From IMG/VR virus record IMGVR_UViG_3300050821_006485, positions 1-64,000 of that record: 64,000 nucleotides of DNA; one strand, written 5' to 3'. The translations under genes were made by a program, and so were the position numbers. Each line of letters begins with the position of its first letter. Position 1 is the stretch's first letter. The notes under the pieces were generated by a model that made no database searches, was not told the origin of the DNA, and saw only the letters and a list, made by a program, of their open reading frames with translations. Origin of the DNA: a virus. Positions 14,899 to 58,693 of this stretch are shown here, piece after piece.

Positions 14899-16296
14899 AT
14901 GGCAGGACTAAATGTAGCACGACGTAAATCCTCTCCGACGCTGCGTACAGCCGAAGGCGGATTAGCGGTAAAATCGACCAAAGGCCAGGCACTCGCTCGG
15001 CTAGTCAACGCGTGCTTGCTTTGGGAGGATAACTTCTACATTGACGGGCAGAGCGTAGCCGATTTGATCGCTAAGCTTGTCCACGAGGTTACTCCTGAAG
15101 TTGCGCAGACCATTGCCGTAAAGGCCCGTACGGAGCAGAAGCTTCGTCATGTGCCCTTGCTGGTTGCTAGGGAGATGGCGCGTGCATCTGTGGCTCATCG
15201 CCTACTTGTAGCTGATACGCTGGAACAGATTATTCAACGGCCAGACGAACTTTCTGAATTCCTTGCCATTTACTGGAAAGAAGGTAAGCAGCCCTTGTCC
15301 GCGCAAGTTAAGAAGGGATTAGCTCGCGCATTCACCAAGTTTTCCGCTTACAACCTTGCAAAATATAACCGAGACGCAGAAATCAAATTACGAGACGTGG
15401 CGTTTTTGTCTCATCCCGCGCCCAAGGACAAGGAGCAGGCTAAGACGTTTGCTCAGTTGGTCAATAAAGATCACTTTCCGAAGGCCCTAAAGTTAGGGAA
15501 ATTTTCCAAGTTGGAGACGCCGGATACGTGGGAAGTCGCGCTGTCCGCCGGTAAGGACAAAAAAGAAACATTTACTCGTCTTATTCAAGAAGAAAAGCTC
15601 GGCGCGTTGGCTTTGCTTCGCAATTTGCGAAACATGACCCAATCCGGGGTAGACGACGATGTAATCCGAGAAGCACTTGTTAGTGCGAACGCAGAAAAAG
15701 TTCTTCCATTTAGATTTATTGCAGCAGCAAAATACGGCCCTCAGTTCGAGTCAGAGCTTGAGCAGTCGATGTTCAAGTGTCTCAAAGACCACGAGAAACT
15801 TGAAGGAGAAACCGTCCTTCTGGTTGACGTTTCGGGCTCTATGGATGCGCCAATTTCTGCAAAGTCCGACTTACAGCGCTTGGATGCAGCCGTCGGTCTT
15901 GCAATGCTTCTGCGTGAAATTTGCGAGAAAGTAAAGGTATATAGTTTTTCTAACAAAGTCGCCGGGGTTCCGCCGCGCAGAGGTTTTGCTCTTGCTGAGG
16001 CGATTAAGTCGTCGCAGCCGCACATGGGAACAGCCCTAGGGGAAGCCGTGCGGGCCGTGGCGAGTGCCGAGCGGAACGCTGATCGAGTTATTGTTATTTC
16101 GGATGAACAAGCCGCAGATCGGGTAACTAATCCCTTTTCTAGAACCGGCAAGAAGGCATATATGGTCAACGTGGCAACCAACACGTACGGAGTTGCCTAC
16201 GGGGATGGCTGGAGCCGCGTAGACGGCTGGTCTGAATCCATTGTTAGTTACATTCTCGCGGAAGAAAATGAAGACGATTTAGATGACGACGAATAA
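14899..16296 (+). CDS. rsr: Ro60/Rsr TROVE-vWA RNA-binding protein
   Basis: TAEGG, LWEDNFY, QRPDEL, KKGLARAF..F..Y.LAKY, PDTWE, ALLRNLRN, VLPFRF and vWA DVSGSM. Confidence 0.95.
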   Translation: MAGLNVARRKSSPTLRTAEGGLAVKSTKGQALARLVNACLLWEDNFYIDGQSVADLIAKLVHEVTPEVAQTIAVKARTEQKLRHVPLLVAREMARASVAHRLLVADTLEQIIQRPDELSEFLAIYWKEGKQPLSAQVKKGLARAFTKFSAYNLAKYNRDAEIKLRDVAFLSHPAPKDKEQAKTFAQLVNKDHFPKALKLGKFSKLETPDTWEVALSAGKDKKETFTRLIQEEKLGALALLRNLRNMTQSGVDDDVIREALVSANAEKVLPFRFIAAAKYGPQFESELEQSMFKCLKDHEKLEGETVLLVDVSGSMDAPISAKSDLQRLDAAVGLAMLLREICEKVKVYSFSNKVAGVPPRRGFALAEAIKSSQPHMGTALGEAVRAVASAERNADRVIVISDEQAADRVTNPFSRTGKKAYMVNVATNTYGVAYGDGWSRVDGWSESIVSYILAEENEDDLDDDE

Positions 16297-16709: not shown

Positions 16710-16786
16710 GCGGGTTTGGTGTTTTAACGGCAGCATTTTGGTCTTCCAAACCAGTGGTATCGGTTCGATTCCGATAACCCGCTCCA
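16710..16786 (+). tRNA. tRNA-Gly(TCC)
   Basis: GCGGGTT/AACCCGC acceptor, CT-TCC-AA loop, T arm, TCCA. Confidence 0.9.
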
Positions 16787-16788
16787 AC

Positions 16789-16864
16789 ATTGGATTAAGA
16801 TAGCGGCTAATCGGCCCATCTCCAAAACGGTGGAACACTGGTTCGAGTCCAGTATCCTCTGCCA
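16789..16864 (+). tRNA. tRNA-Trp(CCA)-like, degenerate
   Basis: CT-CCA-AA loop, perfect T arm, GCCA end; mismatches at acceptor bp 2-3 and in the anticodon stem. Confidence 0.6.
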
Positions 16865-16870
16865 ATTTTT

Positions 16871-16947
16871 GCCCTTGTAGCTCAGCAGGCCAGAGCAGCA
16901 GTTTTGTAAACTGCGGGTCGGGAGTTCGATTCTCTCCTGGGGCTCCA
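16871..16947 (+). tRNA. tRNA-Thr(TGT)
   Basis: Cloverleaf with TT-TGT-AA loop and TCCA end. Confidence 0.9.
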
Positions 16948-16954
16948 ATTTTAT

Positions 16955-17026
16955 GGCGTGGAAGTGAATAGGATCACCTTTGGCTCATAATCAAAAAATC
17001 CGGTTCGAGTCCGTCGAACGCTACCA
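16955..17026 (+). tRNA. tRNA(CAT) Met/Ile2-like, degenerate
   Basis: TTTGG-CTCATAA-TCAAA arm, GGTTCGAGTCC, ACCA; mismatches at the acceptor/T-stem junction. Confidence 0.6.
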
Positions 17027-17048
17027 TTCTAAGTAAGGAAATTTTCAA

Positions 17049-17489
17049 ATGCTAAAGTTCCTTCGCGGGTTACTCGCGGTTATTCTTTTCTCTGCTCTCC
17101 CACTAATTGCTGAATCCGTGCACCAAGGCTCTGTGCAATCCGCCTTCCTTATCCAAGGTGGAACGTTGTTTACACTGACTAGTGGAGGACCATCCGGCCC
17201 ATGTTATTTAGGAAACGGCTTCTGCTGGGACAGCGGCAGTAAATTTATTTTGCACAAAGTTGGCGGTCTCGGCCTATGTTCCTCGGTGTGTAACTTCGAT
17301 GGGACAGTAGAGTCCGTACTAAACACCAGTCTAGGCGGTGTTTGTACACAGATCAGCTTTGAGATTTCTAATGCTACTTTACAGGTGAATAGTTCATACC
17401 GTACAGGACTCCACGCGTGGTACACACAAACGTCGTGCAGTTTGCCCAGTGTCTTTATGGGCGGCGGTAGTTTATTGGTTTATAGGTAA
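17049..17489 (+). CDS. secreted Cys-containing hypothetical protein
   Basis: Signal peptide; inserted within the tRNA cluster. Confidence 0.65.
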   Translation: MLKFLRGLLAVILFSALPLIAESVHQGSVQSAFLIQGGTLFTLTSGGPSGPCYLGNGFCWDSGSKFILHKVGGLGLCSSVCNFDGTVESVLNTSLGGVCTQISFEISNATLQVNSSYRTGLHAWYTQTSCSLPSVFMGGGSLLVYR

Positions 17490-17495
17490 AAGTTT

Positions 17496-17570
17496 TGGTC
17501 TCTAGCTCAACGGCAGAGCCCCGCACTGTTAATGCGACCGTTGTAGGTTCGAATCCTGCGGGACCAGCCA
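17496..17570 (+). tRNA. tRNA-Asn(GTT)
   Basis: Cloverleaf with CT-GTT-AA loop and GCCA end. Confidence 0.9.
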
Positions 17571-19366: not shown

Positions 19367-20011
19367 ATGGAGGAGGACTCGGAGCAGAAACCTACGGAGG
19401 AGTTTAATCTTCCGCCGAAGACGGAGAATGCGCAGGTAATAGTTAAGAAGGAAAAAGATTTAGGCGGCTATTCTGAAATAGCCCTTCGGAACCACGACAA
19501 TTCTTTTAGAATTCAGCGCAAAGATGCTAGCGGAAAATTTATTCGCAGTAAGAAGACCTACGCCGTAGAAACCAAAGACATAACCCGCATGATGCGGCAG
19601 ATGTTGATGGTGCCGGTAAAAGATAAAGACGGCAGGATCACTAAGGAATCAAAAAGTTTATTTGTAAAAGGCTTCGAGAATTTGGCAGATATAATGACTG
19701 CGGATTCTCGCGTTCCAGTTCTTGATAAGTTTGGAAAGCCGATTTTAATAGATGGAAAGCCACTGTTGACCAGGGACTCGAAGATGGCTATGGCATCTAT
19801 TAAGGCTTATCAGGCGTTGATGGAGCGCGGATTTGGTAAGGTACAGCCCGGTGATGAGGAAATGGATGCTTTACGCATCGCTGGAGTGAAGATTGTGGTC
19901 GTGAGTTCGCCGGAATTAATGAATCCAGAAGTAGTAAAAGAAAAACCAAAAGAGTTAGGAACGAATAGACCAAGTTTTATTGAAGCAGAAATTGTTGAGA
20001 ATAAAAGTTAG
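19367..20011 (+). CDS. putative terminase small subunit
   Basis: Directly upstream of TerL; RKDASGKF motif and helical core. Assignment is mainly positional. Confidence 0.5.
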   Translation: MEEDSEQKPTEEFNLPPKTENAQVIVKKEKDLGGYSEIALRNHDNSFRIQRKDASGKFIRSKKTYAVETKDITRMMRQMLMVPVKDKDGRITKESKSLFVKGFENLADIMTADSRVPVLDKFGKPILIDGKPLLTRDSKMAMASIKAYQALMERGFGKVQPGDEEMDALRIAGVKIVVVSSPELMNPEVVKEKPKELGTNRPSFIEAEIVENKS

Positions 20012-20019
20012 GACTCAAG

Positions 20020-21955
20020 ATGCCAAGGAAAATGGCGAAAGAAGTTAAGGAAAGACCATCATATATAAATGCTGATGGTGTTCTTGACGTTTCGAAAATA
20101 TTTAAATTCCAACCGAAACAGACGGAATTACTACGAAACGTAGAAAGAAACGGACATACTTACGTGCAGCCGGTAGCAGAACAGTGCTTATCGGTTGGTG
20201 GTATCCGAGGCGGTAGTATTATTTGCTGCATTAGTTAGTAATAACTAATTGTAAACCTAGAGAATTCGGTGGAACGCCCGTAAGGGCCAATACCGAGCCG
20301 AGCTTCTGAAAAGAAGAAGGTGTAACGACTATCTCGAAAGAGAGTAGGGAACAGCGTTCCCGAAGCACTAGGGGTCCTGCAAAGGGATCAAGATATAGTC
20401 TGGACTTATTAGTAATAATAAGAGAGTAAGCGGACGCGGCTTATTTGTAACATCATTGAAAACTCTCGGATGGGTGATGTATGGAATCATGCATTACTGC
20501 TTAGCGTTTGATGGTTGTGATATTTTAGTGCTGCGTCGAACGTATAAGGAATTGGAATCGGGTGCGATACGGGATGCACTCAATTTCACTCCTAAGGAAT
20601 TATTTTCCTATGACACCACGCGGCACGTGATGAAGTTTTTAAACGGATCAAGAGTTGTATTTGCTCACTGCGAAAATCTTTCTGAAAGAGACATAAGCGC
20701 CTTCTTAGGTCAGGCTTATAGTTTTTGCGTCGTCGATGAGTGCGGTCAATTTTCTTCCGATGCTTGGTTGAGATTATATTCAAGAACTATTGTTAATGCT
20801 ACTTGTAAACCAGACGCTTGGGGTAACTTACCAATCCCAGCGATTGTCGGCTGCACAAATCCTATTGGTCCTCACTATGAATTCTATAGAACTTTGTTTG
20901 TACAGAAGGAGCCATGGAATAAGCCGGAAGACGCAAGGAAAGATGAGCTAACTGGAATTTGGTGGAGACCAGAAGCTGGTGAATGGCTTCCCATATATGA
21001 CCCCAGTAAGTATGCGTACCAGAGAACAACAGTATTAGATAACAAGGAATTACTTAAGCGCGATCCTGGAATTCTTTATAAGCTTAATAGCTTACCAAAA
21101 GCTAAGCGTGATAAAGAGCTTTTAGGACTTGACGGGCGTTATGAGGGCGCATATTTTGACTGCTTTGATCCTTACTATCATGTTATAAATTTGCGTGAAG
21201 ACCCGGAAGCCATTATATGGCAGCCTTCTTATCAAAAAGTTTGGTGCGGGCACGACTTTGGCGCAGGAGCCGGTGGTCACGCCAGTGCGGCATATTTGTT
21301 TACAAAGGCTTTAGTAAGGGATTCAACTGGCGGAGATAATTATAGAATTAAGACTGTATGCTTTAGAGAGATGGTTACTACTGCTGGACAGACCCATAAA
21401 GAGTGGGCCGCTATCTTAGCTAATGCTTGTAAGTTACCTAATGGTGTACCGATAAAGCCAAGCGCTATTTATTTTTCTCACGAAAAGTTTGCCAGGCAAA
21501 TGGCAGGATTTGGTCATACACCGGCGGACGAATATTCCAGAGAATTAAAAGCTTTAGGGTTGCCTCCGGTAGTAAGAGCCACAACAGATCGCATAGGAAG
21601 AGCCAGCCTTTTATATAATTCCTTCAAAAATGGGGATTTAGTAATCACAGACAATTGCAGAGAGATAATCCTTGCAATACCAAATTTGATGCGGGACGTT
21701 GACAATTTGGACGACGTGAGTAAGACGGACGCTAAGGGGGACGATTGTTATGATGGTTTCTCTTACGCGCACTACGGACAATATACTGCACAGAAAAAGC
21801 CAGATGTAGAAAGAATACACGAGCACGCCGCCGGGCTTGATCCACTCGCAAAGTTTTTTTATTTACAGAAGCAGCTAGCAACGCAGGCAAATAAGTCGGC
21901 AACGTTCAAACCATCAGAAATTCCCGTGTGGCAATCAAAATTAAATCAGCAATAA
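20020..21955 (+). CDS. terL: terminase large subunit, spliced: join(20020..20214,20459..21955), 563 aa
   Basis: Splicing restores Walker A GGIRGG|KT. Also LRRTYKEL, Walker B VVDE, CTNP, and nuclease GHDFG and DDCYD. Confidence 0.92.
20215..20458 (+). mobile_element. group I intron, ORF-less, 244 nt
   Basis: P1 GCGGU/GCUGC with U.G at the splice site; P7 GACTA/TAGTC within AAGATATAGTC; terminal omega-G; removal restores the frame. Confidence 0.92.
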
Positions 21956-21990
21956 AATATGCTCAAGACCTCGAATCTTGAGACAGAGTT

Positions 21991-22033
21991 GGGAGATGCC
22001 ATATACATCTCCCTTCTCGCATCTTATATGGAG
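21991..22033 (+). promoter_or_regulatory. SD-masking pseudoknot (HEG leader 1)
   Basis: Stem GGGAGATG/CATCTCCC; loop CCATATA is complementary to TATATGG(AG) at 22025-22031. Confidence 0.75.
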
Positions 22034-22039
22034 AAAAAA

Positions 22040-22681
22040 GTGGGAGAAACATTTTATACGTATTTTTGGCTAAGAGAAAACGGAACTCCTTATTATGTTG
22101 GTAAGGGAAAAGATAAACGTGGATTCGAAAGTAGGGGGCATAGAGTTTCTTGTCCTCCTGAAGACAGAATTATAATACAATACCACCCCAGCGAGGAAGA
22201 AGCTTTAGAGGTAGAAATATTCTTCATAGGGTATTATGGAAGAATAGATTTAGGTACAGGGTGTCTTTCTAATTTAACTGACGGGGGAGAGAATCCTCCA
22301 AGCATGTTAGGGAAAAAACTTTCAGAGATTACCAAAAAGAAAATAGGAGATGCTCACAGAGGCAGGAAATTATCAGATGAGGCCAAAAGAAAGATAAGTA
22401 AGGGGCATACAGGTAAAAAGCATTCAGAAGCGCAGAATCGTGCTCATAGCATTGCTATGACGGGCAGAAAGCATACAAAAGAAGACCTTATTAAAATGAG
22501 TGCCGCACAAAAGGGCAAAAAACTCTCAAAAGAGCACATTGCCAGCATTATAGAGGGCGCAAAAAAGAGAACTATCAGAATACCAACGTGCCACCCAGAT
22601 AGAAAACATGGTGCTTTTGGTTTATGCAAATCTTGCTATGGTAAGAAGGTATATTGGGACAACAAAGGGAGGACTCAGTGA
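22040..22681 (+). CDS. GIY-YIG-type homing endonuclease with NUMOD3 repeats
   Basis: FYTY...PYYVGKG...R, E..FI..YGR, NLTDGGE and repeated KLSEETKxKIS-like units; likely start GTG 22040. Confidence 0.85.
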   Translation: MGETFYTYFWLRENGTPYYVGKGKDKRGFESRGHRVSCPPEDRIIIQYHPSEEEALEVEIFFIGYYGRIDLGTGCLSNLTDGGENPPSMLGKKLSEITKKKIGDAHRGRKLSDEAKRKISKGHTGKKHSEAQNRAHSIAMTGRKHTKEDLIKMSAAQKGKKLSKEHIASIIEGAKKRTIRIPTCHPDRKHGAFGLCKSCYGKKVYWDNKGRTQ

Positions 22682-31362: not shown

Positions 31363-31701
31363 ATGGAAAAACAACTATTATTTAGCCTAACCAAGAAGGA
31401 CTTTGTTATCCAGACGTTCTGCACTGGAGGCAAAGGCGGGCAGCATCGGAATGCCAAGCAAAACGGTGTGAGAATAATCCACCCGGCATCCGGGGCGCGT
31501 GCCGAGCACAGGGATGGTAGGGACCAAGGCAAAAACAAGGCCGAGGCCTTTGAAAAGTTGTCAGAAACCCCTGTTTTTAAGAAATGGCATAAGGCAGAGG
31601 TTGCTAGACGTTTAGGTCAGGTTAGAAGTGATGAAATCGAGGTAGAGCGGGCCGTAGATTTGGCTATGCATGATAAGAATCTAAAGGTTGAGGTACTTTA
31701 A
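31363..31701 (+). CDS. GGQ peptidyl-tRNA hydrolase domain protein (RF-1/ArfB-like)
   Basis: GGKGGQHRN....VRIIH..SG.......RDQ.KNK..A...L. Confidence 0.9.
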   Translation: MEKQLLFSLTKKDFVIQTFCTGGKGGQHRNAKQNGVRIIHPASGARAEHRDGRDQGKNKAEAFEKLSETPVFKKWHKAEVARRLGQVRSDEIEVERAVDLAMHDKNLKVEVL

Positions 31702-32249: not shown

Positions 32250-32319
32250 TAGCGAGTGCTTGGCAAGTGCTAAGCGAAAGCAAAGCGAGTGCGGAGCGAA
32301 CGCGGAGCGAGTGCCAAGC
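32250..32319. repeat. six phased 11-bp units (consensus NAGCGAGTGCN)
   Basis: TAGCGAGTGCT TGGCAAGTGCT AAGCGAAAGCA AAGCGAGTGCG GAGCGAACGCG GAGCGAGTGCC. Confidence 0.8.
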
Positions 32320-32321
32320 CA

Positions 32322-32370
32322 GAACGGGAGGGTGACTTTCACACCCTCTTGTTCGTCCTATGAAAGGGGA
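32322..32370 (+). promoter_or_regulatory. SD-masking pseudoknot (HEG leader 2)
   Basis: 13-bp stem; loop CTTTCA is complementary to TGAAAG(GGGA) at 32361-32366. Confidence 0.7.
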
Positions 32371-32373
32371 CAA

Positions 32374-33003
32374 ATGAACGGGATAATTTACAAAGTAACA
32401 AATATTGAATCTGGAACGTCTTACATTGGACAAACCACAAAAACATTGAAACAGAGGTGGACAGAGCATATTTATGATGCCACCGGTAATAGGAGCAAGG
32501 ATAAAGGATGTTATTTTCACCTTGCTATAAAGAAATATGGCCCAGAGGCATTTAAGTTGATTGTTCTGCAAGAATGCTTAAATAAAGAGGCGTTGGACTC
32601 AGTAGAAAAGTTCTATATTTCCCATTTTAATACGGTTCGTCCCTTTGGTTATAATTTGTCTCTCGGAGGCTCTGGAGTAATGCACGGTAGGAAAATGAGT
32701 GCAGAAGCCAGAGCAAAAATTAGCGCGGGGCTTATGGGAAGACCGGGAGCACAATTTAGTCATACCCCAGAAGCCAGAGCAAAAATAAGCGCATCCCTTA
32801 TGGGTAACAAAAGGTCAGTAGGTAGAAAACTTTCAGATGAAACTAAGGCTAAGATGAGAGCCGCTCATTTAGGAAGAACCTACAAAAAGAAAGACAAAAG
32901 TTTAGATTCAAGCAACGATGCTCATGATAGTGGCGAAAACACTTTAAATATGCGGATTGAGAAAGTTGCGAGTACTAAAGATGACTCAGCGATAGGCCAG
33001 TAA
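32374..33003 (+). CDS. GIY-YIG homing endonuclease with NUMOD3 repeats
   Basis: IIYKVTN...SYIGQT...R, AIKKYG, E..YI, GYNL..GG; start ATG 32374. Confidence 0.9.
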   Translation: MNGIIYKVTNIESGTSYIGQTTKTLKQRWTEHIYDATGNRSKDKGCYFHLAIKKYGPEAFKLIVLQECLNKEALDSVEKFYISHFNTVRPFGYNLSLGGSGVMHGRKMSAEARAKISAGLMGRPGAQFSHTPEARAKISASLMGNKRSVGRKLSDETKAKMRAAHLGRTYKKKDKSLDSSNDAHDSGENTLNMRIEKVASTKDDSAIGQ

Positions 33004-33060: not shown

Positions 33061-35330
33061 ATGCCATTACTTGAGGCTGCTGTAGAAGCAGTCGAACTTG
33101 ATGCATTTGCTAAGGAAATCCCTAGGTAATAAGGTCGGGGATTTTATGCCAAAAATACTTAGGACCTAGTATTTCATGGAACTACAGCATATTCCATGTT
33201 CAAGGCAGAGGCTCAATATTAGGGCCTCGATAAACCCGCTCTAATTGTCTCGAAATCTGAAATGACAACGAGGCGGAAGTCAAGTTTATTTGTAACAAAA
33301 CTTGACACCGTGAGAGATCAAGCGAGAGGGAGCCAAAAGGCTATGCAATGATCCGAGCTGCATGAAACAGTAACATGCAGAGGTTAGCAGAAATGACTAA
33401 TCCAAAATACAGTAACAAAGCTGACTAATATTCCTGTGAGCAATCAGTCACAGGCAGGCGGAGTAACTCGTCCGTCATTCCGCATCCCGTTTAGGGTGCA
33501 GGCTGGCGCGTCTATCTCCCAGGGAACCGGAAATGCCGACTCCATGAACCGAGGCACTGGAAGTAAATGGGCTTCCTTTGCGCTAGCACCTGTTTACCTA
33601 TTTAACGTCTAAAAATTTCATGGACGTTTAAAATTTCGCTGTATCGGTGGAACGCCTGAAAAGGCCAATACCGAGGCAACCTGCCTAGGCAGAGAGTCCG
33701 TAACGACTACACGCGAAACAGGCATAACGCTTGATGATATAGTCTGAACTGCATGGTAACATGCAGAAGGCAGCAGAAATGACTGCCTCATAACCTAAAG
33801 TTATGTAACAATTTTTGGTGAAATTTCCTGGCTCGCCCAGGCTTCCACGGATAGCAAGCAACGCGGTCTCTTCGCCGTAAAAGCCCAGGAGATGAAGAAC
33901 TCTTTGGATGCTGCAATGCAGGGCATCGAGGGGTTAATAAATTCCGACGGGAGTGGTATGATCGACCAAATCCCGGCCACCGCAGTCATTAACAACGGTA
34001 CGGGTACTGGTGACAGTACCTCCAGCATCGTTGGGATGAACGTGGCGGTAGCATTCACCGACCAACAGACGGTAACGTTCTGGACGGTTGGTGGTGTTCA
34101 GCGTACGACCGGCGTATCCTCGGCAGTAGTTAGCTACTCCGATGGACCGAGCAACACTTTGTTCTTCAGCACCGCCCTACCGACCGGTGTGGCAGTAACG
34201 GATTACATCGTGGTGAACGGCGCGACCTACGGCTCTGGTGCCTCTATTTTGGGCATCAAGGCTTGGGACGTGAACAGCAATACCGGGAGTATCGCCGGGC
34301 TTAACCGAGCGACTTACCCAGGCCGTCTTAGCACGCCTACCATTAACTTGGCGGGTGCCGCTATTACGCCAGGCATTGCCCAGCGAGCAGAAGTGCTCCT
34401 AGGCCGTGCGTTGGGTCCTGATGCCGACAGCATTAAGTCCGGCATTTGGTATGGGCCGCCCGAGCAAGCCTTTGCGCAGAGCAATCTGATGTGAACTAAA
34501 CGCATCATCAACTGGTAACAGTTGAAAGTAAACCAAGAGAATTCGGTGGAACACCCAATAAGGTCAATACCGAGCCGAGCCTGTTAGCGCAGGAAGGTGT
34601 AACGACTATCTCGAAAGAGAGTAGGGTCTAAGTAGACTCGAAGCACTTGGCACCCGTAAGGGTTGAAGATATAGTCTGTTCTCGCAGGTAACTGTGAGAG
34701 GGTAAGCGGAAACGGCTTGCCCGCAACGAACAAGACAACGTTCAAATTGCGAACGCACAGGAAATCAAGGGCGATAAAACGCTAGACATGTCCAAGAAGT
34801 ATTTTTCGGATTAACAATAGTCCCCTCAATCGGAAACGGTTGAATGAAAACCGAGAGAATTCAGGGAAACGCCTTAGTGGCCAATCCTGAGCCGAGCCTC
34901 AAAAGAGGAAGGTGCAACGACTATCCTGTAATGGGAGTAGGGGTCAGTGACCTCGAAGCACTTGGGACCCGTAAGGGTTATGATATAGTCTGAGCTTGTA
35001 GGTAACTACAAGAGTTTAGATGGAAACGATCTAAACGTAACGTAACTGACGTTTGGTGGCCGTAAGTATCACAAGAGTTGGACAGCAACCGCAAGCCGAA
35101 TGGATTTGCTGGTGCTAGACAACTGGTACATAGGAGAGCTGTCACCGCTAGAACTGTACGATTTTGGCGGCGGCAATGTGGTAGCTCCCGTGCCCGATAT
35201 TGGCAACGGGACTTCAAATGGTAGTTATCTTACCTCCCACATGTTTGCTTATAACACATGCTTCAACCTGGCTAATGCAGCTCCGCGAGCTGGCTTATAC
35301 GTTCAGAATGCAGCTGTGCCAACTGTGTAG
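33061..35330 (+). CDS. major capsid protein (putative), six exons: join(33061..33123,33163..33213,33424..33610,33818..34492,34735..34811,35049..35330), 444 aa
   Basis: Removing five U|...G| introns gives one continuous 1335-nt frame from MPLLEAAVEAVELDAFAKEIP|DLVF to YVQNAAVPTV. Its position after portal/scaffold and its size fit an HK97-type MCP. Confidence 0.8.
33124..33162 (+). other. 39-nt core-less group I-like mini-intron
   Basis: Three in-frame stops; P1 AAAUCCCU/GGGGAUUU with U.G at the junction; P10 AGGUC/GACCU; ends in G. Confidence 0.75.
33214..33423 (+). mobile_element. group I intron (MCP intron 2), 210 nt
   Basis: P1 GAGGCU/GGCCUC, P10 AAUAUUAG/CUAAUAUU, variant P7 GATCA/TGATC, P9.0 AGC/GCU, omega-G. 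Confidence 0.85.
33611..33817 (+). mobile_element. group I intron (MCP intron 3), 207 nt
   Basis: P1 AACGUCU/GGACGUU, P10 AAUUUCA/UGAAAUU, GACTA...GATATAGTC. Confidence 0.9.
34493..34734 (+). mobile_element. group I intron (MCP intron 4), 242 nt
   Basis: P1 GAUGU/GCAUC; core GAGAATTCGGTGGAAC...GACTA...GATATAGTC homologous to the TerL intron. Confidence 0.9.
34812..35048 (+). mobile_element. group I intron (MCP intron 5), 237 nt
   Basis: P1 GGAU/GUCC; homologous core with compensatory changes (TCAGGG/CCTGA in place of TCGGT/ACCGA). Confidence 0.9.
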
Positions 35331-35461: not shown

Positions 35462-35989
35462 ATGGAAAGCAAAGTTTGTACCAATTGCAGTCTAGAAAAA
35501 CCATTTTCTGAATTTCAAGAAAATGAAAGATATGCGGACGGGTATTCTACGTGGTGTAAGGAGTGCCATAAGCAAGCTTCTACAAAAAGTAGAAAAAAGT
35601 TATCTAAAGAAAATCCTAATTATCACAAAGATAATGCTCTTAAACACAAACATAAAATAAGTTTAGAACAGTTTGAAGAAAAGCAAGTAGAGCAGGGCGG
35701 ACATTGCGCTTTGTGTTTGGCTACTAAAAGCAGTAATGGTGATAGACTAGGAGTAGACCACGATCACAGAATTTGTCCCGGAAAGTATGCTTGCGATAAG
35801 TGTCGAAGAGGTTTATTGTGCAGTTCTTGTAATGCTCGATTGGGCTACCTAGAGGGGTTTTTAGAAGAAGCTTTTGTATTTCCTTTCTTAGGCAGAGGAC
35901 AGTGGATACGGAAAGCAGTAGAATACTTAAACTACTATAAGAATGCATTATATCAAGCGTCTCTTTTGGAGTCTACCCAATGCAAGTAA
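35462..35989 (+). CDS. endonuclease VII-family (His-Me) homing endonuclease
   Basis: CTNC...CKEC, Q.G.CALC, VDHDH, RGLLC..CN..LG. Confidence 0.88.
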   Translation: MESKVCTNCSLEKPFSEFQENERYADGYSTWCKECHKQASTKSRKKLSKENPNYHKDNALKHKHKISLEQFEEKQVEQGGHCALCLATKSSNGDRLGVDHDHRICPGKYACDKCRRGLLCSSCNARLGYLEGFLEEAFVFPFLGRGQWIRKAVEYLNYYKNALYQASLLESTQCK

Positions 35990-36534
35990 CTCCTCTGACC
36001 ATAAAGCAAGCTAATGAATTGATTTCCAGATTGCATCGGCACCACAAACCAGTAGTAGGACACAGATTTTCCATAGGACTTCTCAACCAAGGGGTTCTTG
36101 TAGGCGCTGCCGTAGTAGGAAGGCCAGTTGCCCGTGAAGTAGAACAATATACCATAGCAGAGGTAACTCGGCTTGTGACGGACGGAACGCCTAACGCTTG
36201 CTCAATGCTTTATTCAGCGTGTGCACGGGCAGCCAAGGCTATGGGGTTTACGAAGATTCAGACCTATATTTTGGACAGCGAACCGGGAACTAGTTTAAAA
36301 GCCTCTGGCTGGAAACTAGAAGGCAAAACGGCAGGCGGTAATTGGAACCATAGTTGGCGTAAGGGTCGTAGAGAAGATCAACCCATGGAACCCAAATCTA
36401 GATGGGGTTTGGTTCTAAACTCGGTAGAGGAAGTCCAATGTCAACCACCTTCTGCTTCGCCCGTGACCACGACAACAATTACAGAGAATCTCACAAGCCT
36501 GTGCCAGGAAAATACGATGGTCTCCCCATCGTAA
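35980..36534 (+). CDS. XF1762-family protein (GNAT-like)
   Basis: HRHHKP..GHRFSIG, GRPVAR, EVTRL.TDG.PNACS.LY, TYIL.SEPGTSL.ASGW. Confidence 0.75.
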   Translation: MQVTPLTIKQANELISRLHRHHKPVVGHRFSIGLLNQGVLVGAAVVGRPVAREVEQYTIAEVTRLVTDGTPNACSMLYSACARAAKAMGFTKIQTYILDSEPGTSLKASGWKLEGKTAGGNWNHSWRKGRREDQPMEPKSRWGLVLNSVEEVQCQPPSASPVTTTTITENLTSLCQENTMVSPS

Positions 36535-56680: not shown

Positions 56681-56732
56681 CGTGGGGAATGCCTACCTAT
56701 GCATGGGCATTCTCCGCGCATCTTCATAGGAG
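56681..56732 (+). promoter_or_regulatory. SD-masking pseudoknot (HEG leader 4)
   Basis: 14-15-bp stem; loop CCTATG is complementary to CATAGG(AG) at 56725-56730. Confidence 0.75.
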
Positions 56733-56739
56733 AAAAATA

Positions 56740-57393
56740 ATGCCGCATCATAAGAATACACATTGTAAGCATGGACATGAGTACACGGTAGAAAATACAA
56801 GGATATTACCTAACGGGGCAAGAGTTTGTCGAGCATGTAAGCGTGAATGGGCAAGAGAAAACACGGGATTAGAAGAGGGGGAAGTAAAGCAAAATAAAAA
56901 TCAGAACACTGACAAAACCCATTGTCTTCGTGGTCACGAGTTTACATCGGAAAACACATACATGAAGGGCGAACGTAGGATTTGTATAATTTGTAGGAAT
57001 GCCGCCCAGCGCGATAGACAAAGGATTGCAGAAGCAAAATACAGAGCGTTAAAGAAATCCAGCCCTGAATTATGGGAAAAAGAAAGACGAAGAAGAAGGG
57101 CACAACAACTTAAAAGAGTCGGTTGGAATATTGATCTTTTTGAAGAGACCCTAAACCTGCAAGAAAATAAATGCGCCGTTTGTAGAACTGTTCTAGATAT
57201 TAATGCTATAAAGAACGGCGCTACTAACCAGGCTCATGCTGACCATGAGCACGTAGAGCCTCCAAAGCCTAGAGGTATTTTATGTGGCAATTGTAATTTA
57301 GGCATTGGAAATTTAAAAGAAAACCCAGAAATTATGTTGGCAGCAATTGCCTACGTAACTAAATGGAAGGAAGAGAGGTCGTACGGGCCATAA
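56740..57393 (+). CDS. endonuclease VII-family homing endonuclease with two THC.xGHE Zn modules
   Basis: THCKHGHE...CRAC and THCLRGHE...CIIC; Q...CAVC, DHEH, RGILC..CNLGIG. Confidence 0.85.
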   Translation: MPHHKNTHCKHGHEYTVENTRILPNGARVCRACKREWARENTGLEEGEVKQNKNQNTDKTHCLRGHEFTSENTYMKGERRICIICRNAAQRDRQRIAEAKYRALKKSSPELWEKERRRRRAQQLKRVGWNIDLFEETLNLQENKCAVCRTVLDINAIKNGATNQAHADHEHVEPPKPRGILCGNCNLGIGNLKENPEIMLAAIAYVTKWKEERSYGP

Positions 57394-58693
57394 TTTATCG
57401 CAGTTAGGTAAGTAATTGCCTCATCAATCAGCAATGATTGTTTGTAACCTAGAGAATTCGGTGGAACACCCGATAGGGTCAATACCGAGCCGAGCCCAGA
57501 AATGGGAAGGTGTAACGACTATCTCGAAAGAGAGTAGGGAACAGCGTTCCCGAAGCACTAGGGGTCCTGCAAAGGGATCAAGATATAGTCTGGACTTATT
57601 AGTAATAATAAGAGAGTAAGCGGACGCGGCTTATTTGTAACAATAATCGACAGCATCATTAGACGCCTTTTCTGGATTAATCACCATAGCCGATGCAGTG
57701 GACCTCCCTGAAGGCGCGAGTCCTAGAAATTGGGACGTTCAGTTTAACGTAGGTAGCGTACGCACCAGGTCCGGTTTATTGAGCGTGTACTCTTACGCGA
57801 CCACATTAATAATCACTTCCTATGTTCTTCATTACGGTATAGCAGTGTTTGGGTATACTGGCGTAGAACCAACGGTTAATGAGGGGTTTTTGTTGTCCGG
57901 TTTTATAAACAACCTTTCATATCTGAATGGCCTCCAGGTATTTGTCGTTTCCGCGACAGCAACAACCTTCTCGGTTTTCTTGCCATTTAAGGACGACGGT
58001 CCATTTTTCAATCTCACAGGTTCTGCGGTCTCCCTTTCAGGCGCATTCGCTGGGCCTAACCTAGGCAACACCGTAACTTCCACCGGGTGGACCAACCCCA
58101 GTGGAATCCTAGGTAACGTTTCTTACGCCTCGGCAGTCGGTGGCGCAGCCTTATCAGCAACAATGGTTCCTACGGCGGCAGGAAATGAGTCGTCTAGTAA
58201 TCCGGCGTGGACCGCCCCTGGCAACGTATACACTACCGGCTCGGCATTCGCCCAAGTTACTCTATCTATCGCCGCAGGTGGTGGCGGAGGGGGCGGTGGT
58301 GGTGGCGGGGGTGGAGGTGGAGGGGGTGGCGGCGGAGGCGGTTGCTTCTCCGCAGCGGTTTCCGTTCGTACCCCAGAAGGTCTTATCGAGCTGGGAAATG
58401 CGCCCGGCACTCTCCAAGTTTCTAACGAAACCGGTACGCATAGTGCGCGGCTTATCGTTCACAAGGATTACAAAGGTTGGATGGTGGTAATCGAAGAGGA
58501 TAAGCTTGTCACCATAGATCACGTTATGAGGTCCGGGGATAAATGGGAACCGGCTGGGCTTAAATATCACAATCTACGCCGAGTCTGGTTCGTGGGTACG
58601 GTCTTCGATTTACACGTTATCTCCGATAATGAGGCAGATCATCACTACATACTGTGGAACGGTGACATAGCCCATAACAAACAACTAAAATAG
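57383..58693 (+). CDS. tail protein N-part with Gly22 and C-terminal Hint domain, spliced: join(57383..57409,57650..58693)
   Basis: 9-codon exon (ACG GGC CAT ... GGT) joins ACA GCA TCA in frame. Hint domain CFSA...VFDLHV...HHYIL..GDIAHN at 58343-58678. The start codon is uncertain. Confidence 0.7.
57410..57649 (+). mobile_element. group I intron, 240 nt
   Basis: P1 AGGU/GCCU; 137 bp identical to the TerL intron; omega-G. Confidence 0.88.

What the first reader, a model, noticed from the sequence alone, without database searches (positions are those of the whole stretch)
33061..35330. Major capsid gene split into six exons by five ORF-less introns
Seen: exons of 63, 51, 187, 675, 77 and 282 nt join into one 444-aa frame. 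Each boundary was fixed independently by a P1 U.G pair and an omega-G, and the phases (0,0,1,1,0) close the frame. P9.0 covaries between introns (AG/CU, AA/UU, UU/AA, AG/CU). About 41% of the gene span (935 of 2270 nt) is intron. Inference: five splicing events in what is probably the most expressed late mRNA could act as a timing gate. Skipping exon 2 (phase 0-0) would give an in-frame isoform.
Basis: partly seen in the sequence, partly recalled or inferred. Interest (0 to 1): 0.8.

Follow-up and report, generated by a model that had tools for sequence, protein, structure and literature searches.

The report
Capsid gene with four introns plus mini-intron
The only major capsid gene of an uncultured 101-kb phage really is split into six pieces: four interruptions are complete self-splicing-type (group I) introns, and the fifth is a 39-base stub with splice-site signals but no catalytic part, which probably borrows its neighbour's ribozyme.

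Summary
Exons of 63, 51, 187, 675, 77 and 282 nt (33061-35330, + strand) join into a 444-aa protein. It is collinear with uninterrupted homologues, up to 87% identical. A 56%-identical homologue folds as an HK97-type major capsid protein.

"Five group I introns" needs correcting.
- I3, I4 and I5 pass Rfam's group I threshold.
- I2 (210 nt) is missed by Rfam but belongs to a covarying family with a P1-P9.1 group I topology.
- "Intron 1" is only 39 nt (33124-33162). It has a 14-bp P10+P1 guide with the U.G wobble, a helix to the 3' exon and a terminal G, but no core.

In about 95 related contigs the gene has more than 20 insertion sites. Mini-introns of 38-49 nt occupy four of them. Each mini-intron lies 18-83 nt upstream of a full I2-type intron.

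Best reading: the mini-intron is a core-deleted group I intron removed by group I chemistry, probably using the adjacent core. This step is inferred, not shown. The "timing gate" and exon-skipping ideas are untested.

This scan has noted similar mini-introns in other phage genomes. The closest published analogues are the 56-81-nt degenerate introns of fungal rDNA.

The parts
33061..33123 (+). Exon 1 (63 nt, 21 codons, MPLLEAAVEAVELDAFAKEIP); an AAGGA Shine-Dalgarno motif lies upstream of the ATG
   Evidence: (HMM positions 1-22). In seven mini-intron-bearing genes the variable sites by codon position are 4/0/14, which indicates purifying selection.
33124..33162 (+). 39-nt core-less mini-intron. 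P10 guide AGGTC at 33132-33136 and P1 guide GGGGATTTT at 33137-33145. AAATACT at 33153-33159 pairs with E2 AGTATTT at 33168-33174. The terminal G is 33162. In-frame stops TAA, TAA, TAG.
   Evidence: 14 contiguous bp across the ligated junction with U.G at the splice site; 0 of 5000 shuffles do as well. No Rfam or intron-HMM hit.
33163..33213 (+). Exon 2 (51 nt, DLVFHGTTAYSMFKAEA)
   Evidence: identical or nearly identical to the same 17 residues of uninterrupted relatives.
33214..33423 (+). Intron 2, 210 nt, ORF-less, 'type A' group I intron (not found by Rfam). P1 GAGGCU/GGCCUC; P7 GAUC/GAUC.
   Evidence: 46 pairs, 98.9% paired, 32 pairs with compensatory changes. It is the only type A core in the 101-kb genome.
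33424..33610 (+). Exon 3 (187 nt)
   Evidence: HMM positions 32-91.
33611..33817 (+). Intron 3, 207 nt, ORF-less group I intron
   Evidence: RF00028 63.3 bits, above the gathering score of 50. P1 AACGUCU/GGACGUU.
33818..34492 (+). Exon 4 (675 nt)
   Evidence: 94 homologues, best E-value 1e-63. HMM positions 90-303.
34493..34734 (+). Intron 4, 242 nt, ORF-less group I intron ('type B'). This insertion site (nt 976) was seen only in this genome.
   Evidence: RF00028 57.8 bits. Site comparison.
34735..34811 (+). Exon 5 (77 nt)
   Evidence: HMM positions 302-329.
34812..35048 (+). Intron 5, 237 nt, ORF-less group I intron ('type B'). The site (nt 1053) is shared with L065, L066 and L069.
   Evidence: RF00028 70.1 bits.
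35049..35330 (+). Exon 6 (282 nt including the TAG stop)
   Evidence: HMM positions 331-416.
32260..33003 (+). Free-standing GIY-YIG/NUMOD3 homing endonuclease gene, 58 nt upstream of the capsid gene
   Evidence: It is 61-63% identical to the GIY-YIG ORF inside the 804-863-nt introns that occupy site 63 in relatives.
35462..35989 (+). Endonuclease VII-type nuclease gene directly downstream of the capsid gene
   Evidence: Present in most relatives, including ones with an uninterrupted capsid gene.

Best explanation
This is the HK97-fold major capsid gene of an uncultured phage of about 101 kb. It is interrupted at five places, so its mRNA must be spliced to give the 444-aa capsid protein.

Four interruptions are complete ORF-less group I introns: I2 33214-33423, I3 33611-33817, I4 34493-34734 and I5 34812-35048. 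Each has P1 with a U.G wobble, a catalytic core and a terminal G. They are presumed to self-splice by the usual guanosine-initiated two-step pathway.

The fifth interruption (33124-33162, 39 nt) is a core-deleted remnant of the same intron family. It keeps only what a ribozyme needs in its substrate. That is a guide pairing with the last 9 nt of exon 1 (P1) and the first 5 nt of exon 2 (P10), a helix tying its 3' part to exon 2, and a terminal G. It is most probably excised by group I chemistry supplied in cis/trans by a complete core, most likely intron 2, which starts 51 nt downstream.

Shown: the gene structure, collinearity, capsid fold, four ribozyme cores, the mini-intron's guide and its recurrence.

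Inferred: actual splicing, which core acts on the mini-intron, and the deletion origin. The introns most likely spread by homing with the flanking free-standing nucleases.
For: Gene and fold:
- Six exon pieces are collinear with 43 full-length homologues and with uninterrupted ORFs up to 87% identical.
- The AlphaFold model of homologue P0005 has pLDDT 84.6 and pTM 0.81. Foldseek returns only major capsid proteins. The best hits are Arthrobacter phage Jasmine MCP (E 5.6e-23) and the SU10, cyanophage A-1(L), Mic1 and HK97 capsids.
- The upstream 898-aa and 480-aa genes are conserved in the same order in L006.

Full-size introns:
- RF00028 scores I3, I4 and I5 above the gathering score.
- I2 aligns with seven homologous introns at three different insertion sites. 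P1 changes to match each site, and P3-P9.1 plus the P7 pseudoknot covary. 98.9% of cells are paired against 30-43% in slid controls, and 32 of 46 pairs have double changes.

Mini-intron:
- It has a 14-bp contiguous guide across the ligated junction with the U.G at the exact splice site (0 of 5000 shuffles).
- Ten other distinct mini-introns of 38-49 nt lie at four sites (nt 18, 45, 46, 63). Nine of them have 11-15-bp guides that track synonymous exon differences, with 0-12 of 5000 shuffles matching; the site-18 one (L099) pairs only with a 1-nt bulge and scored 9 bp, 119 of 5000.
- Lengths of 38, 40, 41 and 49 nt are not multiples of three, so these elements cannot be read through.
- Exon 1 is under purifying selection in mini-bearing genes.
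- All mini-bearing contigs found (about 20, six site combinations) have a type A intron 18-83 nt downstream. No mini-intron was seen without one.
- Sites 18 and 63 hold full-size type A introns in other relatives.
- The genome has exactly one type A core, I2.
Against:
- A consistently placed helix between mini-intron and helper was not found.
- The two bases before the mini-intron's terminal G (UA) do not match I2's J7/9 (AG), although they do match in L021, L029, L079 and L080.
- Type A introns at 3' sites of the gene occur without mini-introns. The association may therefore reflect linkage and co-conversion rather than function.
- The 67-nt fungal PaSSU intron is reported to splice in vitro with only flanking rRNA (PMC3160393), so a helper core is not the only conceivable route.
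- The capsid fold was predicted for a homologue, not for the joined product itself.
Confidence: 0.62

Rival explanations
1. The 39-nt element is a minimal autonomous group I intron. Like the 56-81-nt degenerate introns of fungal SSU rDNA, it splices with help only from flanking exon RNA, and the neighbouring intron is irrelevant.
For: PMC3160393 describes introns with P1, P10 and an intron-to-3'-exon helix (PM). This is the same three helices seen here. It also reports in vitro splicing of the 67-nt PaSSU intron when about 300 nt of flank is present.
Against: At 38-49 nt these elements are smaller than any fungal case. No P7-like guanosine pocket can be drawn. They end in G rather than U. Every one sits just upstream of a full core.
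Confidence: 0.1
2. The 39 nt stay in the mRNA and ribosomes hop over them, as over the 50-nt gap of T4 gene 60.
For: Stops (AGG TAA TAA) follow the last sense codon. That codon lies in a hairpin. A homing endonuclease gene is adjacent, as with mobA and gene 60 (bioRxiv 10.1101/2022.08.31.505936).
Against: No matched take-off and landing codons exist. Here they are CCU versus UAG. The site-45 elements have GCU versus AAG, and the site-46 elements split a codon. Landing on the only downstream CCU gives the wrong frame. The 11-15-bp guide spanning both exons, with a U.G at the junction and covariation, has no role in hopping.
Confidence: 0.06
3. The mini-intron is removed by a protein machinery, an endonuclease plus an RNA ligase of phage or host, that recognises the two hairpins rather than by any ribozyme.
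For: Both junctions lie at defined positions of hairpins. The phage carries several RNA-related genes, including Ro60/TROVE and an RF-1-domain protein.
Against: The invariant U at -1, the terminal G and the wobble at the exact junction are group I hallmarks with no known role in protein-catalysed splicing. No ligase or splicing endonuclease was identified near the gene.
Confidence: 0.07
4. The mini-intron is not removed. The allele is defective, or the main product is an exon-2-skipped or N-terminally truncated capsid protein (E1 joined to E3 through a composite 300-nt intron, 33124-33423).
For: 33124-33423 is 300 nt, so the frame is kept. The mini-intron's P1 could serve as an alternative 5' splice site for the I2 core. 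[quoted passage not shown]
Against: Mini-introns occur in about 20 independent contigs. Exon 1 and the micro-exons are under strong purifying selection and are identical in protein to uninterrupted relatives. The P10 guide pairs with exon 2, not with exon 3.
Confidence: 0.05

Closest known systems
Staphylococcus phage Twort orf142 (three group I introns in one gene, with exon skipping; Landthaler and Shub 1999, PMC22036) and Bastillevirinae polymerase and terminase genes with up to three introns (PMC11878797)
   Same: Several ORF-less or nuclease-bearing group I introns packed into one phage gene. Micro-exons are present and in-frame exon skipping is possible.
   Different: Here there are four complete introns plus a core-less one in a single capsid gene. 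The clade shows more than 20 insertion sites in the same 1.3-kb gene, and relatives carry up to six interruptions. One of the two intron families is invisible to RF00028.
Small 'degenerate' group I introns (56-81 nt) of fungal nuclear SSU rDNA: Phialophora PaSSU, Arthonia lapidicola, Porpidia crustulata (PMC3160393)
   Same: Deletion-derived introns that retain P1, P10 and a helix between the intron and the 3' exon while lacking most of the core. Splicing depends on RNA outside the intron.
   Different: The phage elements are shorter (38-49 nt) and have no P7 remnant. They end in G, whereas PaSSU ends in U. They interrupt a protein-coding gene, occur at several sites with site-specific guides, and always lie next to a complete intron.
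Engineered trans-excision-splicing ribozymes and 'spliceozymes' (PMC2532722, PMC4094466), and a group I core given its guide in trans (PMC2709566)
   Same: A group I core excises an internal segment bounded by U and a terminal G from an RNA it is not part of. This shows the proposed chemistry is feasible.
   Different: In those systems the guide sits on the ribozyme. Here the guide is inside the excised segment and the arrangement is natural.
T4 gene 60 50-nt coding gap with the mobA homing endonuclease (bioRxiv 10.1101/2022.08.31.505936)
   Same: A short stop-containing insert in an essential phage gene, linked to a homing endonuclease.
   Different: That gap is bypassed by ribosomes using matched GGA codons. 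Here there are no matched codons, and there is a group I guide instead.
Collaborative homing of an ORF-less intron with a free-standing endonuclease (cyanophage S-PM2 psbA intron and F-CphI; recalled from the literature, not checked here)
   Same: ORF-less introns in a gene flanked by free-standing GIY-YIG and Endonuclease VII-type nuclease genes.
   Different: No cleavage data exist here. The GIY-YIG gene is intron-encoded in some relatives and free-standing in this genome.

Membership tests
Group I intron (Rfam RF00028): I3, I4, I5 | Match to the covariance model above the gathering score (P1-P9 core) | tested here: met
   63.3, 57.8 and 70.1 bits against a threshold of 50.
Group I intron: I2 (type A) | Conserved P3-P8 core with the P7 pseudoknot, supported by covariation | tested here: met
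   No RF00028 hit. On 8 homologues, 46 pairs are 98.9% paired and 32 have double changes, against slid controls of 30-43%. The window's P7 is a double swap, GACU/AGUC to GAUC/GAUC.
Group I intron: all five interruptions | 5' exon ends in U wobble-paired to G of an internal guide (P1); last intron base is G | tested here: met
   Read. Every gap mapped in relatives (about 130, at 21 sites) also resolves to U...G.
Group I intron: 39-nt element 33124-33162 | Own catalytic core (P3-P9, guanosine-binding P7) | tested here: not met
   The 39 nt are fully accounted for by the loop, the P10/P1 guide, a spacer, the exon-binding helix and the terminal G. There is no CM or HMM hit.
Group I intron: all | Guanosine-dependent self-splicing | not testable with these tools
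   Needs an in vitro transcript or cDNA.
HK97-fold major capsid protein | HK97 fold | tested here: met
   The model of family member P0005 (56% identical over exon 4) has pLDDT 84.6. The top Foldseek hits in BFVD and PDB are all phage capsid proteins. The joined window protein itself was not folded.
HK97-fold major capsid protein | Match to a curated capsid sequence family (Pfam or PHROGs) | tested here: not met
   No Pfam or PHROG hit for the exon pieces or for 16 full-length homologues, and no PDB sequence hit. This is a capsid sequence family without a curated model.
HK97-fold major capsid protein | Position after portal-like and scaffold-like genes | tested here: inconclusive
   Conserved order of 898-aa, 480-aa (charged, helical) and capsid genes in L006 and most loci. 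The two upstream genes have no family match.
Programmed translational bypass (T4 gene 60 type) | Identical take-off and landing codons flanking the gap | tested here: not met
   CCU versus UAG here, and no match in any of the 11 distinct mini-introns.
Degenerate small group I introns (fungal PaSSU type) | P1, P10 and an intron-to-3'-exon helix retained | tested here: met
   P1 of 9 bp, P10 of 5 bp, and AAAUACU/AGUAUUU. The last helix covaries with L021, which has AAACACU/AGUGUUU.
Degenerate small group I introns (fungal PaSSU type) | P7 remnant and shared descent (IC1, rDNA site 1516) | tested here: not met
   No P7-like pairing can be drawn. The host gene, the intron family and the terminal base (G rather than U) all differ (PMC3160393).

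The most novel reading that the evidence does not exclude
The 39-nt element is a natural non-autonomous group I intron, a satellite of its neighbour. It supplies only its own guide (P1/P10) and terminal G. It is excised by the catalytic core of the complete type A intron 51 nt downstream, so one ribozyme removes two introns. It also hitchhikes on that intron's endonuclease-driven homing, because it lies inside the co-conversion tract. This would make splicing of the capsid mRNA ordered: the mini-intron must go before, or together with, its helper.
Probability: 0.5. Interest if true: 0.9.

Novelty: new variant of a known kind. Interest (0 to 1): 0.8.

Why it matters
Published phage genes found here carry at most three group I introns. 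This essential, presumably highly expressed late gene needs five removal events. Its clade has turned one 1.3-kb capsid gene into an intron landing pad with more than 20 sites and two intron families, one of which standard models miss. As a result, gene callers report only fragments of the capsid gene.

The core-less mini-introns are the more important part. If they are excised by a neighbouring core, they are the first natural case of a group I ribozyme processing a second intron. They would parallel non-autonomous transposons, and they would be a natural counterpart of engineered trans-excision ribozymes. The system is small enough (about 350 nt of RNA) to test directly in vitro.

Tried and rejected
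- Single 300-nt intron. I first read 33124-33423 as one 300-nt intron with 'exon 2' spurious. I rejected this when the homologue HMM found the 17-residue block at 33163-33213 and the homologues proved to be the right length.
- Ribosomal bypass: rejected for lack of matched codons and because the only landing site gives the wrong frame.
- Read-through: rejected because of three stops and because related elements of 38, 40, 41 and 49 nt are not multiples of three.
- A free-standing helper core elsewhere in the genome: none found.
- A conserved tether helix between mini-intron and helper, and a P9.0 match. Two of eight pairs place an 8-bp helix on the same helper region and four of eight match at P9.0, but the window's own pair does not. 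Inconclusive (and reading).
- Pfam, PHROGs and PDB sequence searches on the exons and the family gave nothing. tblastn against 50,697 phage records found no match to exon 4.
- The search for related loci with the 16-sequence alignment failed because no stretch was conserved enough.
Full report
**What is there.** The window is the first 64 kb of a 101,202-nt IMG/VR virus record, estimated 91% complete. On the + strand an ATG at 33061 follows an AAGGA Shine-Dalgarno motif.

| Piece | Coordinates | Length |
|---|---|---|
| E1 | 33061-33123 | 63 |
| E2 | 33163-33213 | 51 |
| E3 | 33424-33610 | 187 |
| E4 | 33818-34492 | 675 |
| E5 | 34735-34811 | 77 |
| E6 | 35049-35330 | 282 |

Joined in a script, they give 1335 nt and 444 codons with no internal stop. 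Each 5' exon ends in U and each intervening piece ends in G. Each intervening piece also puts an in-frame stop within three codons of the 5' splice site: AGG-TAA, CAA-TAT-TAG, T|AA, T|GA and TAA.

**Is the product real, and is it a capsid protein?** The exon pieces hit nothing in Pfam or PHROGs. tblastn of exon 4 against 50,697 phage records found nothing.

An exhaustive phmmer search of exon 4 against 1.84 billion representative proteins found 94 relatives. Many are full length, 420-457 aa. An HMM of 43 full-length relatives hits all six exon pieces in order with no overlap or gap. This test also located exon 2, whose 17 residues (DLVFHGTTAYSMFKAEA) I had first dismissed.

tblastn of the joined product against about 95 related IMG/VR loci aligns residues 1-444 to single uninterrupted ORFs at 83-87% identity, for example in L031, L032, L042, L047 and L056.

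The family has no Pfam, PHROG or PDB sequence match. An AlphaFold model of the uninterrupted member P0005 has pLDDT 84.6 and pTM 0.81. Foldseek matches it only to phage major capsid proteins. In BFVD the best hit is Arthrobacter phage Jasmine MCP at E 5.6e-23. In PDB the hits include SU10, cyanophage A-1(L), Mic1 and HK97. The two genes upstream (898 aa and 480 aa) are conserved in the same order in L006.

**The four full-size introns.** Rfam RF00028 scores I3 (33600-33766), I4 (34483-34698) and I5 (34803-35012) at 63.3, 57.8 and 70.1 bits, against a gathering score of 50.

I2 (33214-33423) gets no Rfam hit, here or in seven relatives. Its 3' half aligns with I3. Homologous 194-235-nt introns sit at three different sites of the gene in relatives (nt 63, 101 and 114). 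Their P1 guide is rewritten for each site.

RNAalifold recovers P1 (U.G invariant), P3, P4, P5, P6, P8, P9 and P9.1. With the P7 pseudoknot added, the counts are:
- 46 pairs are 98.9% paired, against 30-43% when partners are slid.
- 32 pairs have changes on both sides.
- No shuffle in 500 reaches the observed values.
- The window's own P7 is a double compensatory swap.

No intron contains an ORF of 60 aa or more.

**The fifth interruption is not an intron of the same kind.** 33124-33162 is 39 nt, in frame, with three stops. Its positions 9-22 (AGGTC|GGGGATTTT) are complementary to the ligated junction GAAATCCCT|GACCT over 14 contiguous pairs. The U.G wobble falls exactly at the 5' splice site. 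This is the canonical P10+P1 internal guide, and no shuffle in 5000 does as well.

Positions 30-36 (AAATACT) pair with exon 2 positions 6-12, and the last base is G. Nothing is left over for a catalytic core.

**Relatives show this is a recurrent, selected element.** Mapping the window CDS onto the loci gives at least 21 insertion sites in this one gene. All of them resolve to U...G boundaries. Some relatives carry six interruptions, for example L081 and L082.

Mini-introns of 38-49 nt occur at nt 18 (L099), nt 45 (ten loci), nt 46 (L029, L044/45, L062) and nt 63 (the window, and L021/L030, one contig fetched twice). There are eleven distinct sequences. Ten, the window's included, have guides of 11-15 contiguous pairs that follow synonymous differences in the exons. 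For example, exon GAC/guide GGUC here becomes exon GAU/guide GAUU in L021, and GCC-AAG/UGGCAA becomes GCA-AAG/UUUGCAG. The eleventh, at site 18 in L099, pairs 6+6 bp only with a 1-nt bulge and scored 9 contiguous pairs (119 of 5000 shuffles).

The exon-binding helix covaries too: AAAUACU/AGUAUUU here against AAACACU/AGUGUUU in L021. Lengths of 38, 40, 41 and 49 nt rule out translation through the element.

In seven mini-bearing genes, the first 63 nt vary at 4, 0 and 14 sites in codon positions 1, 2 and 3. After removal of the mini-intron the protein equals that of uninterrupted relatives. The element must therefore be removed precisely.

**Which machinery removes it?** Matched take-off and landing codons, the hallmark of gene 60-type hopping, are absent in every case. 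The only CCU downstream would give the wrong frame.

All mini-bearing contigs found (about 20, in six site combinations) have a complete type A intron 18-83 nt downstream. I saw no mini-intron without one, and none downstream of its partner. Sites 18 and 63 carry full-size type A introns in other relatives. The mini-introns' 5' ends (loop, guide, UAAA-like joiner) and 3' ends (A-rich...UG) resemble the two ends of type A introns. This suits an origin by deletion of the core. The whole genome contains one type A core, I2, and no free-standing core.

I therefore rate excision by group I chemistry using a neighbouring core as the most likely mechanism, at about 0.5-0.6. Engineered trans-excision ribozymes and spliceozymes show the chemistry is feasible (PMC2532722, PMC4094466, PMC2709566).

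There are weaknesses:
- No RNA data could be obtained.
- No consistently placed tether helix was found.
- The window's mini-intron does not match I2 at P9.0.
- Type A introns at the 3' end of the gene lack mini-introns, so linkage by co-conversion may explain part of the association.

**Homing context.** The gene is flanked by a free-standing GIY-YIG/NUMOD3 gene (32260-33003) and an Endonuclease VII-type gene (35462-35989). The 804-863-nt introns that occupy site 63 in relatives encode a GIY-YIG protein 61-63% identical to the window's free-standing one. GIY-YIG enzymes of the I-TevI type cut upstream of the insertion site; this is established knowledge, not tested here. A mini-intron 18 nt upstream would then lie in the co-conversion tract and travel with the intron.

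**Comparison with what is known.** In the papers searched and read here, phage genes hold up to three group I introns. Examples are Twort orf142 (PMC22036) and the Bastillevirinae polymerase and terminase genes (PMC11878797).

The closest published analogue of the mini-introns is the set of 56-81-nt degenerate introns of fungal SSU rDNA. They keep P1, P7, P10 and an intron-to-3'-exon helix, and need extra flanking RNA to splice (PMC3160393).

The phage elements differ in several ways. They are smaller and lack P7. They end in G. They sit in a protein-coding gene at several sites. They always accompany a complete intron. Five literature searches found no description of core-less group I introns in phages. 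I reached the same reading, before seeing those notes.

**Verdict.** I class it as a new variant of a known kind, with a plausible but unproven helper-dependent splicing mechanism that would be new.

Noticed in passing
window 32260-33003, and L023, L048, L050, L068, L074, L084: The free-standing GIY-YIG gene just upstream of the capsid gene is 61-63% identical to the GIY-YIG ORF carried inside the 804-863-nt site-63 introns of relatives. The same nuclease lineage is intron-encoded in some genomes and free-standing in others.
   Followed up: partly
L006-L100 (related IMG/VR contigs): One 1.3-kb capsid gene has at least 21 intron insertion sites across the clade. They belong to two intron families, and some contigs carry six interruptions (L081, L082). 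L029 has two complete type A introns only 23 nt apart, at sites 1245 and 1268. This could be a precursor state for core loss.
   Followed up: partly
window 31363-31701: A 112-aa RF-1-domain (ArfB-like peptidyl-tRNA hydrolase) gene lies about 1.4 kb upstream of the intron-rich capsid gene. It could rescue ribosomes stalled on unspliced transcripts; that is pure speculation.
   Followed up: no
window 20205-20422: Another type B group I intron (RF00028 65 bits) lies between ORFs 19367-20011 and 20456-21955. Neither ORF has a Pfam match. A NUMOD3 nuclease gene follows at 21959-22681.
   Followed up: partly
window 57400-57612: A further type B group I intron (57.8 bits) lies just after an Endonuclease VII-type gene (56689-57393) and before ORF 57698-58693.
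   Followed up: no
window 34589-34644: 56 nt of intron 4 are 89.5% identical to the DNA polymerase / HNH endonuclease region of Phormidium phage Pf-WMP3. This was the only megablast hit of the 8-kb region in the phage collection. It suggests the intron family is shared with cyanophages.
   Followed up: no
window 33124-35048: All five interruptions place an in-frame stop within zero to three codons of the 5' splice site. Ribosomes on unspliced RNA would therefore stop before entering the ribozyme.
   Followed up: no
window 14899-16296 and 16713-17567: A Ro60/TROVE-vWA protein gene is followed by a cluster of tRNA genes.
   Followed up: no
window 35980-36534: A Mom-like DNA modification gene overlaps the end of the Endonuclease VII-type gene downstream of the capsid gene.
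   Followed up: no
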